DNA of 64,000 bases from Octopus sinensis (Eukaryota), in the NCBI RefSeq assembly GCF_006345805.1, contig NC_043003.1:85188001-85252000 (forward strand), read 5' to 3'. Numbering within the stretch: position 1 is the first letter of the stretch; each line of letters starts with the position of its first letter. The notes beneath the pieces are model-generated. The model was not told the origin of the DNA and ran no database searches. It saw nothing but the letters and a program-made list of their open reading frames with translations. The position numbers and the translations under genes are program-made. This document shows, one piece after another, positions 17,141 to 55,699 of the stretch.

Positions 17141-17451
17141 TATTATTATTATCATCATCATCATCATCATCATTATTATTACTACTAACCCTATCGCCCT
17201 ACCGAAGACTTAGTCATTGGCTCAACTGTAACTTAAACTTGATACCATCAGCGTATATTAATCCCCTGTTTAACATCATTAAAAAAAACTCTACTAAAAA
17301 TATATATATATTTCTTGTTTTGTTTTTTGTTTTCTGATTTTTTTTTTTTTTCTCTCGTAACAATACTCGAGTGAGAGGTTTAAACTATCTGAAGCAATCA
17401 CTAAAGGAATAAAATATGAAATAAAGAAAGGTTTTCTTTTATATTTCTTAC

Positions 17452-18093
17452 CTGTCCACCGTTTTCCTGGCTTCGTCTCTGACGTGGAATCATTACAATT
17501 ATCTCTTCAGAAGTCACATTTTCCAGTTGGTTGTCTAAGAAACGGAACTGACTAATTACAGCTGATTCATGTCCTGCGGCTATGTAATAAACGTAAAGTT
17601 TTTTATTACTTTTAAACTGCGGGTGGGTTGTCACGGACATCAAACCACGCTCGTCAACCGGTCGCTCTTTATTGTAAGCGACTCTATTAGACAAATCCAA
17701 AATTTTCTTCTTCCTTGGTAACTGACGCTGTAATTCTTCGGATTGATTGGCTGCGCCTGTATTTCCGTATATGTAGTGGTAGATCCGTCCATCCTGCTCT
17801 GCTACTAGGAACGATTCTCTATCGATTGAAACAAATGCTATAGGTTTCCTTAGTTCACCTGCGTGGATTTCCTTTAAGCAGAGGCACCGATCGTGCTGTA
17901 GTTCTTTTAATGAAACACCACATACCGCGATCGATTTAGCGAACAAGCTGCTGGATATAATTGTAATAGCAGTGTTAATAATGTTAATAATTGCAACAAT
18001 AGCAGAAGAGGTAGTAGTAGCAGCAGCAGTAGTAGTAATAGTAGTAGTAGTAGTAATAGTTGGACTAAAACCACTGACCGATTCAGAAAGCAT
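17452..18093 (-). CDS. HHIPL: HHIP-like protein, first coding exon (Thr-rich/hydrophobic N-terminus plus start of beta-propeller)
   Basis: Translation contains CLCLKEI...FLVAEQDGRIY...DERGLMSVTTHPQFKSNKKLYVYY...ENGGQ, matching HHIP/HHIPL motifs (ERGLL..AFHP, NHNGGQ). Phase-0 donor CAG|GTAAGA at 17452/17451. Possible upstream acceptor (ctcacag) at 18137, so the ATG start is an inference. Confidence 0.88.
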
Positions 18094-21180: not shown

Positions 21181-21464
21181 AACTAGGTCGCTGGTTGTTG
21201 TTAATGTTGTTTTGTAGAGAAAGGAAGTACTGGCTGTTATTATAATAGAGCCATAACTAAGGCGGCGGGTTGGCAGAATCGTTAGCACGCTGGACAAAAT
21301 GCTTGGCGGTATTTCACCCGTCGCTACGTTCTGAGTTCAAATTCCTTCGAGGTCGACTTTGCCTTTCATCCTTTCGGAGTCGCTAAATTAAGTACTAGTG
21401 AAACACCAGGGTCGATGTAATCGACTAGTGCCCTCCCTCAAAATTTCAGGCCTTGTGTTTTTGT

Positions 21465-21831
21465 TATATTTGCCATTTGAATATGGCTAACCCCTAAGGG
21501 TGGATGCTACTGTAGTTTGTAGCCCCAGGAGGACACCTCCTCCAGCTGGCTATAGACACACTTTCTGTGCCTTATCAGTATTTGTGAAGGGAAGCCGGAA
21601 CCGACTTCTCATCAACAACTATGATTGTCACACGCCGATGACGGGTCAATACCCTGAAACTCGAGTCCGTGTGTATCATAAGTTGAAGACGAGAAGGATG
21701 GCTTCCCTTCGTAAATACTGATAGGGCACAGAAAGTGTGTCTATAGCCAGCTGGAGGAGGTGTCCTCCTGGGGCTACAAACTACAGTAGCATCTACCGTT
21801 AGGGGTTAGCCATATTCAAATGGCAAATATA
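21465..21831 (+). repeat. Long foldback element (~132-bp near-perfect inverted arms) with an apical hammerhead
   Basis: 21465-21596 is the reverse complement of 21700-21831, with 5 mismatches counted by eye. Confidence 0.95.
21629..21673 (+). ncRNA. Type I hammerhead ribozyme (U4C core variant)
   Basis: Stem I CACACG/CGTGTG; core CCGATGA; stem II GGGT-caat-ACCC; GAAAC; stem III AC-TCGA-GT; triplet GTC, with predicted cleavage after 21667. Confidence 0.85.
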
Positions 21832-22319
21832 CGTCACGATATTATTATAGAGTCATATTTCTCGGGATTTTCTCTCTGTCCGAGTCTCACTCCGATTTTT
21901 AAAAGGTGAAAAAGGTGTACAAGCAAGGTTGTGAACTTAAGAAGCTCGATTTGGAACCACGTGGTTTTGAGTTCAGTCTCAGTGTGCGGCACTATGGGCA
22001 ACCGTTTTCTATTATTGCTTCGAGTGACCGATACTTTGTGAGGGAAATTGTTAGACGGAAACTTTATGGTAGCCTGTAGTGTGTGTGTGTGTGTGTGTGT
22101 GTGTTTTGTGTCTGTGTCAGTTCCCCCTCCTCTTGACAACTGTTATTGGTTTGCTTACATCCCTGTAATTTAGCGGTTCGACAAAGGAGACCAATAGAAT
22201 AAGAACAAGGCTTAAAAAAGACAATAAATACTAAGGTCAATTCGTTTGATTAAAACTCTTCAAGACCGTGCCCCGACATGGCCGCAGTCCAGTGACTGAA
22301 ACAAGCAAAGGACAAAAGA

Positions 22320-23290: not shown

Positions 23291-24567
23291 CGAGGGACGT
23301 TCAATAAGTAATGCCCCTGACCCACTTGCAGTTGTTTGATCTAGCTGAAATTGTGCATGTGCAATTATTTATATCTCTATAGATTAAGTGACAAATTACA
23401 GCTCTGAACTAATTGTAGTTTCTGATTTACAGGTGTTTGAACTGAGTCAAGTGTGAAATGGAACCTGTTGAGTGTCGAGCAGTAATCCGGTTTTTGTATT
23501 TGAAAGGACATACACCATGGGAGACTTTTGATGAAATGAAAGTAACTTATGGTGATGATGCCCCATCATATGACCTTGTAAAACGCTGGCATCGTGAATT
23601 CAAACATGGTCAGAACTCTGTGGAAACATCTCCCAGATCTGGTCGCCCCACTTCTGCCATTGATGAGGCATCTTTCCGTCAAGCTTGAGGCTGCCATTTT
23701 GGAAGATCGACGCATAACTATTCGCCAAATAGCCCATGAGGTCAAGATTAGTACCGGGTCTATGGAAACTATCATTCATGACCATTTGCATATGCAAAAG
23801 GTGTCTGCCAGATGGATTCCCAGGTTGCTCACACCTTTCCAGAAGCAAGAACGCGTTGAGTGCTCGAGGATGAATTTGGAGATGTGCCAAGAAGATGAGT
23901 CAAAATTTTTCAAAAAACTGATTACCCAGGATGAAACCTGGCTCCATCACGATGATCCACAGACCAAAGCCCAGTCAATGCAGTGGAAGCACCATGACTC
24001 ACCTCCTCCAAAGAAGGCAAGGGTGCAGCCCTCCGCTGGCAAGGTCATGCTCACAGTCTTCTGGGACCAGGACGGAGTAGTGATGACAGATTTCCTGGAA
24101 AAGGGTACCACAATTACAGGAATCTGTTATGCTTCACTTTTGAGGAAATTAAGAGAAGCTATCAAAATCAAGAGGCGGGGCAAGATCAGCAAAAGCATCC
24201 TCCTCCTGCAGGACAACGCTCTGGTCCACAACTTGCGTGTCGCCAGATCAGAAGTACAGGCGTGCGGCTCTGAACTCCTCTCCTGACCTTGCACCCTCTG
24301 ATTTTCACCTCTTCCCAGCCATGAAGTTGTTTTTGAAAGGAAAACGTTTCCCAGATGATGCAGCCTTGAATTCTGAAGTCACGTCGTGGTTGGAGGACCA
24401 AGCTGGGGTCTTCTACAAAAACGGTATCCAGAGCTGCATCAAACGATGGAAGAAATGCGTAACTCTGGGTGGTTCCTATGTAGAAAAAGACTAATAACTG
24501 TGCCAAGTTTCGTTGCTCTACTGATATGGGAAGTGGGTCAAGGGCATTACTTATTGAACGCCCCTCG
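23291..24567 (+). mobile_element. Near full-length mariner (DD34D) element
   Basis: ~37-bp TIRs CGAGGG.CGTTCAATAAGTAATGCCC.TGACCCACTT within a TA tract; 1.28 kb long. Confidence 0.95.
23458..24494 (+). pseudogene. Frameshifted mariner transposase
   Basis: Motifs WIPRLL, ITQDETW, LLQDNA and SPDLAPSDFHLF are spread over three frames, with shifts near 23680 and 24280. Confidence 0.93.
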
Positions 24568-24576
24568 TTATATATA

Positions 24577-25612
24577 CAGGGTGGAGAAGCAAATTTTACA
24601 ATGAACGTTAAGTTATTTTTTCTCAGCAGACACTAAGTCAATTGTTTTGAAACGTAGCATATATTGATGTCCTAATCATACCTAACACTATTATCCTTAC
24701 TTTTTCAGAAACTTTTGCCCCAAAGAGTAATCAGGAAAGCAAACATCAAAGAATGTGTGATTTGTTGAATGCACTCATCACACCAAAGGAGATTTCAAGA
24801 ATAGTTGGAGTGTCCATAAAGACTGTTTATAATGTAAAGAATAAAATGACTATGAGCAAAACTATTAGGAGGAAGTCTGGAAGTGGAGGAATCAACAAAA
24901 AACATACCAAAGCTTTTATTAAGGTTCTCAAATCCCAAATCCTAAAGGATCAACCCAAATCCATGAGAAAAATGGCAATTGAACTTGAGGTAGACAACAA
25001 GACCATTAGAAATGCAGTAAAATATTATTAGAGGTTAAAATCTTACACAAGAACACCAAAATACTTGTTGACAACAGCTATGAAGGAAAAGAGATTGGAA
25101 AGGTGCAAGAAAATTATTACATGGTTCAAGAAAAAGTCCGCCATTGTAATGATCTTTTCAGATGAAAAGATCTTCAATGTCGATGTTGTTCTGAACAGCA
25201 GAAATGACAGATTTATCGCAAAATCGACAGCTGAGGTTAAGGAGACATTCAAAACAAAACATCCTGCTCAAGTTATGGCTTTAGGTGCTATGGCTTCCGA
25301 TGGAAAGAAAATGCCTATAAAATTCTACAAAGCTGATGAAAAGATCAATGTTAATACTTACTACATAACTCTGGGATACCAGGTATTGCCATGGCTTAAA
25401 GCAAACTACCCAGATGGTAATTATGTATGGACACAGGATGGTGCTCCAGCCCACACAACTAGAAAAATACAAGATTTCTGCAAATCCAACTTTAGCAATT
25501 TTTTGGAATCATGTTTATGGCCGCCTTCTAGCCCTGATTTAAACCCTCTGGATTATGCTATTTGGGGCAGAACATCACACAGCAATGTCGACTCTCTTGA
25601 AGATACTATATA
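24577..25612 (+). mobile_element. 3'-truncated maT-like (DD37D-type) Tc1/mariner element
   Basis: Starts TA-CAGGGTG. Disrupted ORFs 24753-25031 and 25065 onward with FSDEKIF, WTQDGAPAH and WPPSSPDLNPLDY. No right TIR found. Confidence 0.88.
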
Positions 25613-25614
25613 TA

Positions 25615-25995
25615 GGCACAAGCGCGGCTGTGTGGTAAGAAGTTTGCATCACAAGCACATGGTTCCGGGTTCAGTCCCACTGCGTTGCACTATGTGTAAG
25701 TGTCTTCTACTGTAGCCTCAGGCCGACCAAAGCCTTGTGAGGGTATTTGGTGGACGGAAACTGAAAGAAGCCTGTCGTATTTATCTATGTGTGTGTGTCC
25801 TTGTTTGTCCCACCACCACCGCTTGACAACCGGTGTTGGAGTGCTTACGTCCCCGTAACCAGCGGTTCAGTAAAAGAGATCGATAGAATAAGTACTAGGC
25901 TTTAAAAATAAGTCCCGTTGTCGATTTGACTAAAACCCTTGAAGGCGGTCCTCCAACATGGCTGCAATCAAATGACTGAAACAAATAAAAGAATA
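25615..25995 (+). mobile_element. SINE family B
   Basis: Same head, body and tail as other family B copies. Confidence 0.85.
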
Positions 25996-45116: not shown

Positions 45117-45226
45117 CACTCTGTGAACGGCCATAATCAAAACATGAACAAGCAAGAAAAAGCAACAACGCGAGGATGTGGAATAAGTACAGTGTTGTTG
45201 GACGCTCAGAAAAGGAAAGAAAGAGG

Positions 45227-45261
45227 ATTTCATGTTTCGAGCGGAGCTCTTCGTCAGAAAT
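45227..45261 (-). ncRNA. Hammerhead, family B
   Basis: ATTT-CTGACGA-A-GAGC tcc GCTC-GAAAC-AT-G-AAAT. Canonical core, but the cleavage triplet is mutated. Confidence 0.65.
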
Positions 45262-45595
45262 ATAGAAAAAGTCCAAAGAAAGGAAGACGGAGAAAGAAAA
45301 TCGCCAATGATACACACGCGGTCACATATTGAAATGAACGGAAGGGAATGGGAGACGAAAAAGTTCTTTCAAGGACAGGAGAGTGCAAGAGAAGAAAACA
45401 GCAAAGAAGGGATTGACGATGTTGGAGGAAGGAGTGGAGGTCAGGCTTGGTGAGAGGGTGTGAATGTCGGTCTAGGTGTTATATATATATATATATATAT
45501 ATACATATATTTCAAAATTGGACAAAAATTGACAAAGACAGATGAAGGAACAACAAACAAGGTATATTAGTTTGACGCTCGGAGAAAATGGATAT

Positions 45596-55399: not shown

Positions 55400-55555
55400 T
55401 ACATATATATATAATAAACATACATATATATATACGTATATATATATAGTAAATAAAAATCAACGAAGAGCAAACACAAAAACAAGAAAAAACAACGCGA
55501 GGACGTGGTACATGCAAAGTATTAACAAACGCTCAGGAAAGAAAGACACGAAGTC

Positions 55556-55588
55556 TTTAACGCTTCCAGCAAAACTCTTCGTCAGAAA
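55556..55588 (-). ncRNA. Decayed hammerhead, family B
   Basis: TTT-CTGACGA-A-GAGTtttGCTG-GAAGC-GT-T-AAA, followed by the family B tail. Confidence 0.5.
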
Positions 55589-55699
55589 CAGGAGATTGAG
55601 GAAAGTCCATGAAAAAATAAGGACGGAGAAAAAATCATCAACGATCCACATGTGATTACATTTTGAAATATATAATATTATAATATAATATATATATAT

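What the first reader, a model, noticed from the sequence alone, without database searches (positions are those of the whole stretch)
21465..21831. ~367-nt rod-like foldback with a hammerhead at its apex (viroid/retrozyme-like architecture)
Seen: ~132-bp inverted arms continue inward through imperfect pairing (TTCTC/GAGAA, TCAAC/GTTGA, TATGAT/ATCATA) into hammerhead stem I, so the whole element is one extended stem I capped by the catalytic core. Four of the five arm mismatches are G-U pairs on the + (ribozyme) strand and none is A-C. That hints at RNA-level constraint, but the sample is small. Each arm also has local hairpins (AGGAGG-aca-CCTCCT), allowing an alternative branched fold. No ORF. 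Inference: either a self-cleaving rod RNA element or a PLE inverted pseudo-LTR product. It lies ~3.3 kb upstream of the HHIPL first coding exon and could yield dsRNA for ADAR editing or siRNA production.
Basis: partly seen in the sequence, partly recalled or inferred. Interest (0 to 1): 0.85.

Follow-up and report, generated by a model that had tools for sequence, protein, structure and literature searches.

The report
Head-to-head insertion of octopus retrozyme
This hairpin is one back-to-back insertion of a common 352-base mobile repeat that carries a hammerhead ribozyme motif, not a viroid-like rod, and the family's insertions show that such hairpins are likely made when a Penelope-type enzyme copies the RNA from both ends of the cut DNA at two fixed start points.

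Summary
The hairpin and the type I hammerhead are real, but the rod is not the repeated unit. The parent is a 352-nt, ORF-less tandem unit (1,402 intact hammerhead cores genome-wide): a non-LTR retrozyme of an octopus-like genome. Of 80 loci sampled on one contig, 44 are head-to-head and none tail-to-tail; junctions differ (34 distinct of 36), and the window's own junction occurs exactly once. Copies end at two fixed points about 46 nt apart (A, B), the Penelope 'tail'. In 36 of 37 classifiable head-to-head loci one arm ends at A and the other at B (p about 3e-10), with 9-14 bp target duplications and junction microhomology; 17 of 36 cannot be fold-back self-copies. Best model: a Penelope-type RT/endonuclease primes on both DNA ends and the two cDNAs anneal. 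The G-U bias vanishes across the family (28 G-U, 36 A-C). The inner imperfect helix is the monomer's own stem I. The window copy has one U4C hammerhead, no B end and no target duplication: likely a dead-end copy. Cleavage, circles and the mobilising partner are not shown.

The parts
21465..21596 (-). Left arm: inverted copy of the 3' part of the 352-nt retrozyme unit (unit positions 352 to 221). It stops 9 nt short of end A and lacks the tail that this arm carries in most head-to-head loci.
   Evidence: 97.7% to a natural dimer; arm coordinates
21597..21840 (+). Right arm: sense copy of the unit, 5'-truncated at about unit position 116 (21578-21596 fits both arms), running through the hammerhead to end A
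   Evidence: 93.9% over 21578-21840; alignment
21578..21718 (+). The monomer's own hairpin (extended stem I capped by the hammerhead); the inversion junction at 21596/21597 lies inside its base
   Evidence: same fold in non-inverted copy L043; distal helix covaries between subfamilies
21629..21673 (+). Type I hammerhead motif, U4C core variant, C.U at the base of stem II, 2-bp stem III with palindromic tetraloop; predicted cut after 21667
   Evidence: cleavage not tested
21832..21840 (+).
   Evidence: end shared by 20 of 36 single-orientation loci and one arm of most head-to-head loci
21440..21464 (+). 3' part of a SINE-like repeat (label recalled) into whose AT-rich end the element inserted; its usual last bases are missing and an ATT-type tail follows the element at 21841
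   Evidence: 6 matches in the window against 0.04 expected; end comparison; no target duplication here
17449..18093 (-). First coding exon of HHIP-like protein 1 (neighbour, no link shown)

Best explanation
The hairpin is a single head-to-head insertion of a 352-nt, protein-free tandem repeat with a type I hammerhead motif (a non-LTR retrozyme), likely written into the genome by a Penelope-type reverse transcriptase/endonuclease that primed on both ends of the cut DNA. Shown: the unit, its two fixed 3' ends A and B about 46 nt apart, one end on each arm of head-to-head copies, target duplications, (TA)n targeting, variable junctions with microhomology. Inferred: tandem copies are transcribed, self-cleave and probably circularise; the enzyme cuts both strands of AT-rich DNA; one 3' OH starts cDNA at A, the other at B; both run toward the RNA's 5' end and stop at variable points; the two cDNAs anneal at short complementarity and are filled in. 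Here they met inside the monomer's own stem I, so the copied arm looks like a continuation of the ribozyme stem. The B end and target duplication of this copy were probably lost later. With one hammerhead and 132 bp of duplex holding any cut pieces together, this copy would not release a unit-length RNA.
For: 352-nt period in natural tandems; arrays of about 7 and 4.7 units, the latter with 0-3 differences between units; 1,992 hits of a 27-nt 3' motif and 1,402 intact hammerhead cores, controls 0. Of 80 contig-1 loci: 44 head-to-head, 0 tail-to-tail, 36 single orientation; of the 44, 36 A+B, 0 A+A, 1 B+B, 7 with one unclassified end; 18.5 A+B expected if independent, p 2.7e-10. A second set: 12 of 12 head-to-head loci A+B, read by eye. 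Duplications of 8 bp or more in 11 of 17 loci without (TA)n flanks against 2.6% in swapped-flank controls; 27 of 44 have a (TA)n-like flank. Microhomology of 2 nt or more at 13 of 21 clean junctions against 16% null, p 3e-6. 17 of 36 A+B loci cannot be a fold-back copy of either arm, 11 of them by more than 30 nt. Compensatory changes in stem II (G-C 25, A-U 17) and the distal stem I helix (U-A 30, C-G 10), core invariant or of known variant type. Genome holds intact RT+GIY-YIG ORFs of 775-883 aa with hammerhead-like motifs, two 3' ends and (TA)n flanks. A purified Penelope-type protein cuts and extends both strands and starts at two RNA sites that bound the tail (PMC11167929, main text read).
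Against: The window copy itself has no B end and no target duplication, so its origin is inferred from the family. No autonomous element sharing sequence with the unit was found in 39 GIY-YIG stretches, and the likeness between its ends and those of the commonest intact family is not significant (p 0.25). 11 of 32 young junctions carry extra or missing bases, and 8 of the 21 clean ones have 0-1 nt of homology. 19 of 36 A+B loci are individually compatible with fold-back. The hammerhead fold is 5.7 kcal/mol above the predicted minimum as a monomer (4.8-6.4 in 8 copies). Covariation counts sequences of a few related subfamilies: only 4 pairs change on both sides, no more than in shuffles. 8 of 9 Xenopus retrozyme dimers did not cleave in vitro (bioRxiv 10.64898/2026.07.22.740005), so activity cannot be assumed.
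Confidence: 0.8

Rival explanations
1. Same retrozyme, but head-to-head copies arise by self-priming (fold-back of the cDNA, or priming on an antisense template as proposed for rotifer Penelope elements), the tail coming from endonuclease resolution.
For: Proposed in PMC3846280 (passages). The window's junction sits inside a natural hairpin. 19 of 36 A+B loci allow it. Arms are closer to each other (3.3%) than to other loci (7.4%), and 8 of 49 share a rare variant.
Against: 17 of 36 loci have an A arm reaching further 5' than the B arm while lacking the tail, so neither arm can be the template of the other. Either arm can be the longer. Most junctions have only 0-5 nt of homology. Arm likeness is also expected from one template RNA or later conversion.
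Confidence: 0.12
2. The whole 367-nt foldback is itself a mobile or replicating rod RNA (viroid-like), held in shape by selection on RNA.
For: 22 other loci match the full length. One junction recurs in 3 of 36 loci, two of them in the same layout.
Against: Those loci differ at the apex; this junction has one exact genomic match; the recurring junction has 5 nt of microhomology and appears with A and B swapped in one locus; no G-U excess; only 13 of 44 head-to-head loci have a complete hammerhead in just one arm and 27 have none; a single ribozyme cannot excise a unit.
Confidence: 0.03
3. A MITE or foldback DNA transposon with long terminal inverted repeats that captured a hammerhead.
For: Long inverted arms, TA-rich flanks, target duplications.
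Against: Ends are asymmetric (A on one side, B on the other), arm length and junction vary, 36 of 80 loci have one orientation only, and direct tandems exist.
Confidence: 0.02
4. Assembly artefact or a one-off local inverted duplication.
For: The window copy lacks a target duplication; one sampled locus, L072, is a palindrome including its flanks.
Against: Arms differ at 5 sites and end precisely on family landmarks; 44 of 80 loci share the layout with the A+B rule and duplications, which an artefact would not give. The window locus itself was not checked in reads.
Confidence: 0.03

Closest known systems
Metazoan non-LTR retrozymes (coral, mussel, axolotl; PMC7229834; vertebrate survey bioRxiv 10.64898/2026.07.22.740005)
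   Same: Tandem unit of 352 nt (mussel 350-390, axolotl 330/350), type I hammerhead with short stem III and tetraloop, mismatch at the base of stem II as in axolotl HHR_Amex2, GC 44%, no ORF, duplications longer than 4 bp, Penelope-type elements in the same genome.
   Different: Mostly dispersed copies of under three units, about half head-to-head, with two fixed 3' ends. Text searches of the two papers found no inverted copies, and none of a tail in the preprint. Circular RNA and cleavage not shown here.
EN+ Penelope-like elements: inverted pseudo-LTRs with a tail at one end (PMC3846280, PMC8557442, PMC11167929)
   Same: Head-to-head layout, tail on one end only, 5' truncation, partial tandems, 8-10 bp duplications, microsatellite/AT-rich targets, hammerhead upstream of the start sites.
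   Different: No RT-endonuclease ORF; tail about 46 nt rather than 30-40; canonical-type rather than minimal hammerhead; no sequence link to an autonomous family found.
L1 twin priming (as described in PMC2912911, passages)
   Same: Both DNA ends prime on the RNA and the two cDNAs anneal at short complementarity.
   Different: In L1 the second primer lands internally at variable sites and the parts do not overlap; here both primers use fixed adjacent sites, so both arms copy the same 3' sequence and form a long hairpin.
Hammerhead viroids and HDV-like rod RNAs (recalled)
   Same: Rod-like predicted fold with a hammerhead.
   Different: Rod made by DNA-level duplication at insertion, one ribozyme on one strand, variable between loci, no RNA-level constraint on the arms.

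Membership tests
Non-LTR retrozyme | Tandem repeats of about 170-400 nt | tested here: met
   352-353 nt period; dimers up to about 7 units. The window copy is under one unit per arm.
Non-LTR retrozyme | Type I hammerhead in consecutive units | tested here: met
   Consecutive complete cores in L027, L061, L088, L164, L165; 92.6% of cells paired in 46 distinct copies
Non-LTR retrozyme | No protein-coding ORF, GC under 50% | tested here: met
   Longest stop-free frame 81 aa in a dimer; GC 0.44. LTR, PBS and PPT were not searched as such; the unit is simply tandem.
Non-LTR retrozyme | Target duplications longer than 4 bp where present | tested here: met
   8 bp or more in 11 of 17 loci without (TA)n flanks; none at the window copy
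Non-LTR retrozyme | Self-cleavage of the RNA | not testable with these tools
   Needs in vitro transcription; U4C is reported to lower activity in vitro yet allow viroid infectivity (PMC3088659, passage)
Non-LTR retrozyme | Abundant circular RNA in tissues | tested here: inconclusive
   Only contigs of guessed RNA runs were available; they cannot show ends or circles. The circular unit folds well (z -7.2 against 60 shuffles).
EN+ Penelope-like element (autonomous) | ORF with RT and GIY-YIG endonuclease | tested here: not met
   None in the unit or attached to any sampled copy; such ORFs exist elsewhere in the genome
Penelope-type insertion signature | Head-to-head inverted copies with a tail on one end | tested here: met
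   36 of 37 classifiable loci, plus 12 of 12 in a second set; not visible at the window copy, whose left end is cut short
Penelope-type insertion signature | AT-rich or microsatellite targets, 5' truncation, partial tandems | tested here: met
   27 of 44 head-to-head loci with a (TA)n-like flank; variable 5' ends
Penelope-type insertion signature | Homology to the pseudo-LTR of an autonomous partner | tested here: inconclusive
   No link in 39 GIY-YIG stretches out of 5,029 first-look candidates
Viroid-like rod RNA | The rod is the fixed, replicated unit | tested here: not met
   Junction unique; 34 distinct junctions of 36
Viroid-like rod RNA | Strand-specific constraint on the arms (G-U over A-C) | tested here: not met
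   28 against 36, p 0.38
MITE / foldback DNA transposon | Symmetric fixed terminal inverted repeats | tested here: not met
   0 A+A and 1 B+B of 37

The most novel reading that the evidence does not exclude
This family is a genomic record that Penelope-type enzymes insert by double priming: a protein dimer uses each end of a double-strand cut to start cDNA at one of two fixed RNA sites, probably on a circular or multimeric retrozyme RNA. That one step would explain the long-unexplained inverted pseudo-LTRs, the one-sided tail and the duplications, prove retrozymes are Penelope passengers, and have seeded this octopus genome with several hundred long hairpins that could feed RNA editing or small-RNA pathways.
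Probability: 0.55. Interest if true: 0.72.

Novelty: new member of a known kind. Interest (0 to 1): 0.5.

Why it matters
As a locus it is ordinary: one of well over a thousand copies, probably inert. The family matters. Retrozyme papers name Penelope-like elements only as candidates for mobilisation (PMC7229834) or argue from co-occurrence and homology and leave the mechanism open (bioRxiv 10.64898/2026.07.22.740005); here the insertions carry the Penelope signature directly. How Penelope elements make inverted copies with a one-sided tail is called undefined in PMC8557442. The A+B rule links that structure to the two start sites and two-strand extension seen in vitro (PMC11167929) and argues against fold-back priming, with a 352-nt template small enough to test at once. 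My searches found no cephalopod retrozyme description and no twin-priming account for Penelope elements, but subscription papers, Repbase/Dfam and supplements were not seen.

Tried and rejected
Rfam, gathering and E-value modes: no hammerhead hit; not taken as evidence against, since the core is a variant. G-U bias: rejected (the window copy is one of the 34 loci and supplies 2 of the 28 G-U; only unit positions 240-9 were counted). Foldback as unit: rejected. Autonomous partner: L146 has a family copy next to an intact 775-aa ORF, but it sits in a microsatellite and has no second copy at the ORF's 3' end, so it was read as a separate insertion; a search with the end region returned only family copies; end likeness to the 781-aa family p 0.25; no shared sequence upstream of 36 single-orientation copies. 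The hammerhead scan was faulty (missed a known copy) and was redone. A covariance model was built but not used. Earlier-findings look-ups gave one unrelated note and nothing. Sampling caveats: the 80 loci are the first 80 of 81 formed by the first 100 of 1,992 motif hits; two-armed loci have two chances to be hit, so 44 of 80 overstates the true share; ends were read from BLAST alignments with windows A = 345-15, B = 44-61; the second set of 21 loci was hand-picked, partly for opposite-strand pairs.

Full report
Observation. The inverted repeat is as described: arms 21465-21596 and 21700-21831, 132 nt, 96% complementary, folding far better than shuffles on both strands. At the apex is a type I hammerhead motif: stem I 21629-21634/21668-21673, core 21635-21641 with C at position 4, stem II 21642-21655 with a C.U mismatch at its base, a 2-bp stem III closed by a palindromic tetraloop, and C17 at 21667. 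Rfam does not detect it; a scanner of my own does, with 1 hit in 20 shuffled windows. An HHIP-like protein 1 gene starts at 18093 on the minus strand; its first exon is 95% identical over the part searched to the Octopus bimaculoides protein, so the genome is probably an octopus (inference).

The unit. A genome search scored 40 of 2,030 candidates and returned 23 loci matching the full length (the window included) and many matching only query 114-367. The flanks show a 352-nt unit in direct tandem, up to about 7 units; in a 4.7-unit array the units differ by 0-3 bases. A 27-nt 3' motif has 1,992 exact hits and the intact hammerhead 1,402, reversed controls 0. The unit has no ORF (81 aa at most), 44% GC and a well-paired circular fold (z -7.2). 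Across 46 distinct hammerhead regions 92.6% of cells pair; stem II switches G-C to A-U and the distal helix U-A to C-G between subfamilies; stem III never varies; the pair at the base of stem II is mostly mismatched. These are few events in related sequences, so this supports but does not prove selection. Cores are mainly the U4C form (35), the canonical form (25) and U7C (3) among 69 parsed. This meets the sequence definition of a non-LTR retrozyme (PMC7229834: one part of six and passages read; bioRxiv 10.64898/2026.07.22.740005: parts 1-3 of 5 and passages).

The imperfect inner helices are the monomer's own extended stem I, present in non-inverted copies; two private G-to-A changes turn family G-U pairs into A-U pairs here (alignment). 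Only the outer arm is new, and it is a DNA-level copy.

How the inversions form. I fetched 80 of the 81 loci formed by the first 100 motif hits on contig 1. 44 are head-to-head, none tail-to-tail, 36 single orientation (two-armed loci are oversampled). 3' ends fall at two places, A and B, about 46 nt apart: 20 A, 14 B, 2 other among single copies. Among head-to-head loci 36 have A on one arm and B on the other, none A+A, one B+B, seven have an unclassified end (p 2.7e-10 against independence). Twelve further head-to-head loci, mostly from another subfamily, were all A+B. Of 17 loci outside (TA)n tracts, 11 have flanking duplications of 8 bp or more (9-14), against 2.6% in controls, so each is one insertion. 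Junctions are scattered (34 distinct of 36) and favour short homology (13 of 21 clean junctions with 2 nt or more, null 16%; 11 more of the 32 young junctions have extra or missing bases). In 17 of 36 loci the A arm reaches further 5' than the B arm yet lacks the tail, so neither arm can have templated the other. The window's junction has one exact match in the genome and one match with a mismatch. Arm mismatches show no G-U excess (28 against 36).

Mechanism. Inverted copies with a tail on one end, duplications and microsatellite bias are Penelope hallmarks (PMC3846280 and PMC8557442, passages). A purified Penelope-type protein, predicted to be a dimer, cuts AT-rich DNA on both strands, extends both, and starts at two RNA sites that bound the tail (PMC11167929, main text); that paper does not discuss inverted insertions. 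Joining these: each DNA end starts cDNA at one site, and the two cDNAs anneal, as in L1 twin priming (PMC2912911, passages). This step is inferred, about 0.7; the identity as a Penelope-mobilised retrozyme about 0.9. Whether the two cDNAs come from two RNAs or two units of a multimer or circle is open. The genome has suitable enzymes: intact RT+GIY-YIG ORFs with hammerhead-like motifs, alternative 3' ends and (TA)n flanks, but none was tied to this unit by sequence.

This copy. Its right arm ends at A; its left arm stops 9 nt short of A, with no tail or duplication. It sits at the end of a SINE-like repeat whose last bases are missing, which suggests a later deletion (inference). One ribozyme gives at most one cut, and the pieces would stay paired; U4C is reported to lower activity in vitro (PMC3088659, passage), and short-stem-III hammerheads work best as dimers (PMC4209133, parts 1-2 of 4). 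A transcript would form 132 bp of duplex on either strand, but transcription, editing and any effect on HHIPL were not shown.

Verdict. Real feature, known kind, wrong headline: not a rod RNA but a by-product of insertion. Interest lies in the family-wide A+B rule, which makes the origin of Penelope inverted repeats and the mobilisation of retrozymes directly testable. Searches for prior description found hammerhead counts in the giant squid genome (PMC6962438, passages) but no cephalopod retrozyme; closed-access papers, repeat databases and all supplements were not seen, so the family may already have a repeat-library name.

Noticed in passing
window 40943 and 51384 (+); related copies 45150-45299 and 55428-55638 (-): A second, unrelated repeat of about 200 bp with a small type I hammerhead-like motif (U4C core, 2-bp palindromic stem III), ending in (TA)n.
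   Followed up: partly
L144-L152, L157, L161: A young RT+GIY-YIG family with intact 780-883 aa ORFs, a U3-A8 hammerhead-like motif about 75 nt before two alternative 3' ends some 33 nt apart, inserted in (TA)n; other families (L146/L153/L155, L156/L158/L159, L160) have different hammerhead-like motifs.
   Followed up: partly
L165:2211-3887 and L164:1786-4292: Arrays of about 4.7 and 7 units with a partial first unit and a clean B or A end; near-identical units fit one round of copying on a circle or long tandem RNA.
   Followed up: partly
L072:843-1109: The only B+B locus; the flanking DNA is also inverted, so it may be a larger palindrome or an assembly artefact.
   Followed up: no
L054, L081, L103: The same inversion junction three times, at a 5-nt microhomology, once with A and B swapped.
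   Followed up: partly
L016, L050, L055, L061, L083, L104: A subfamily whose cleavage triplet is GUA instead of GUC, with an A-U pair at the base of stem II.
   Followed up: no
window 23582-24283 and 24651-25712 (+): Tc1/mariner-type transposase remnants (PF01359, PF13358). The large + strand ORFs near 25 kb are not HHIPL.
   Followed up: no
window 17449-18093 (-): The HHIP-like protein 1 model has a Thr/Ala/Ile-rich N-terminal extension absent from the Argonauta protein; the true start may lie further in.
   Followed up: no
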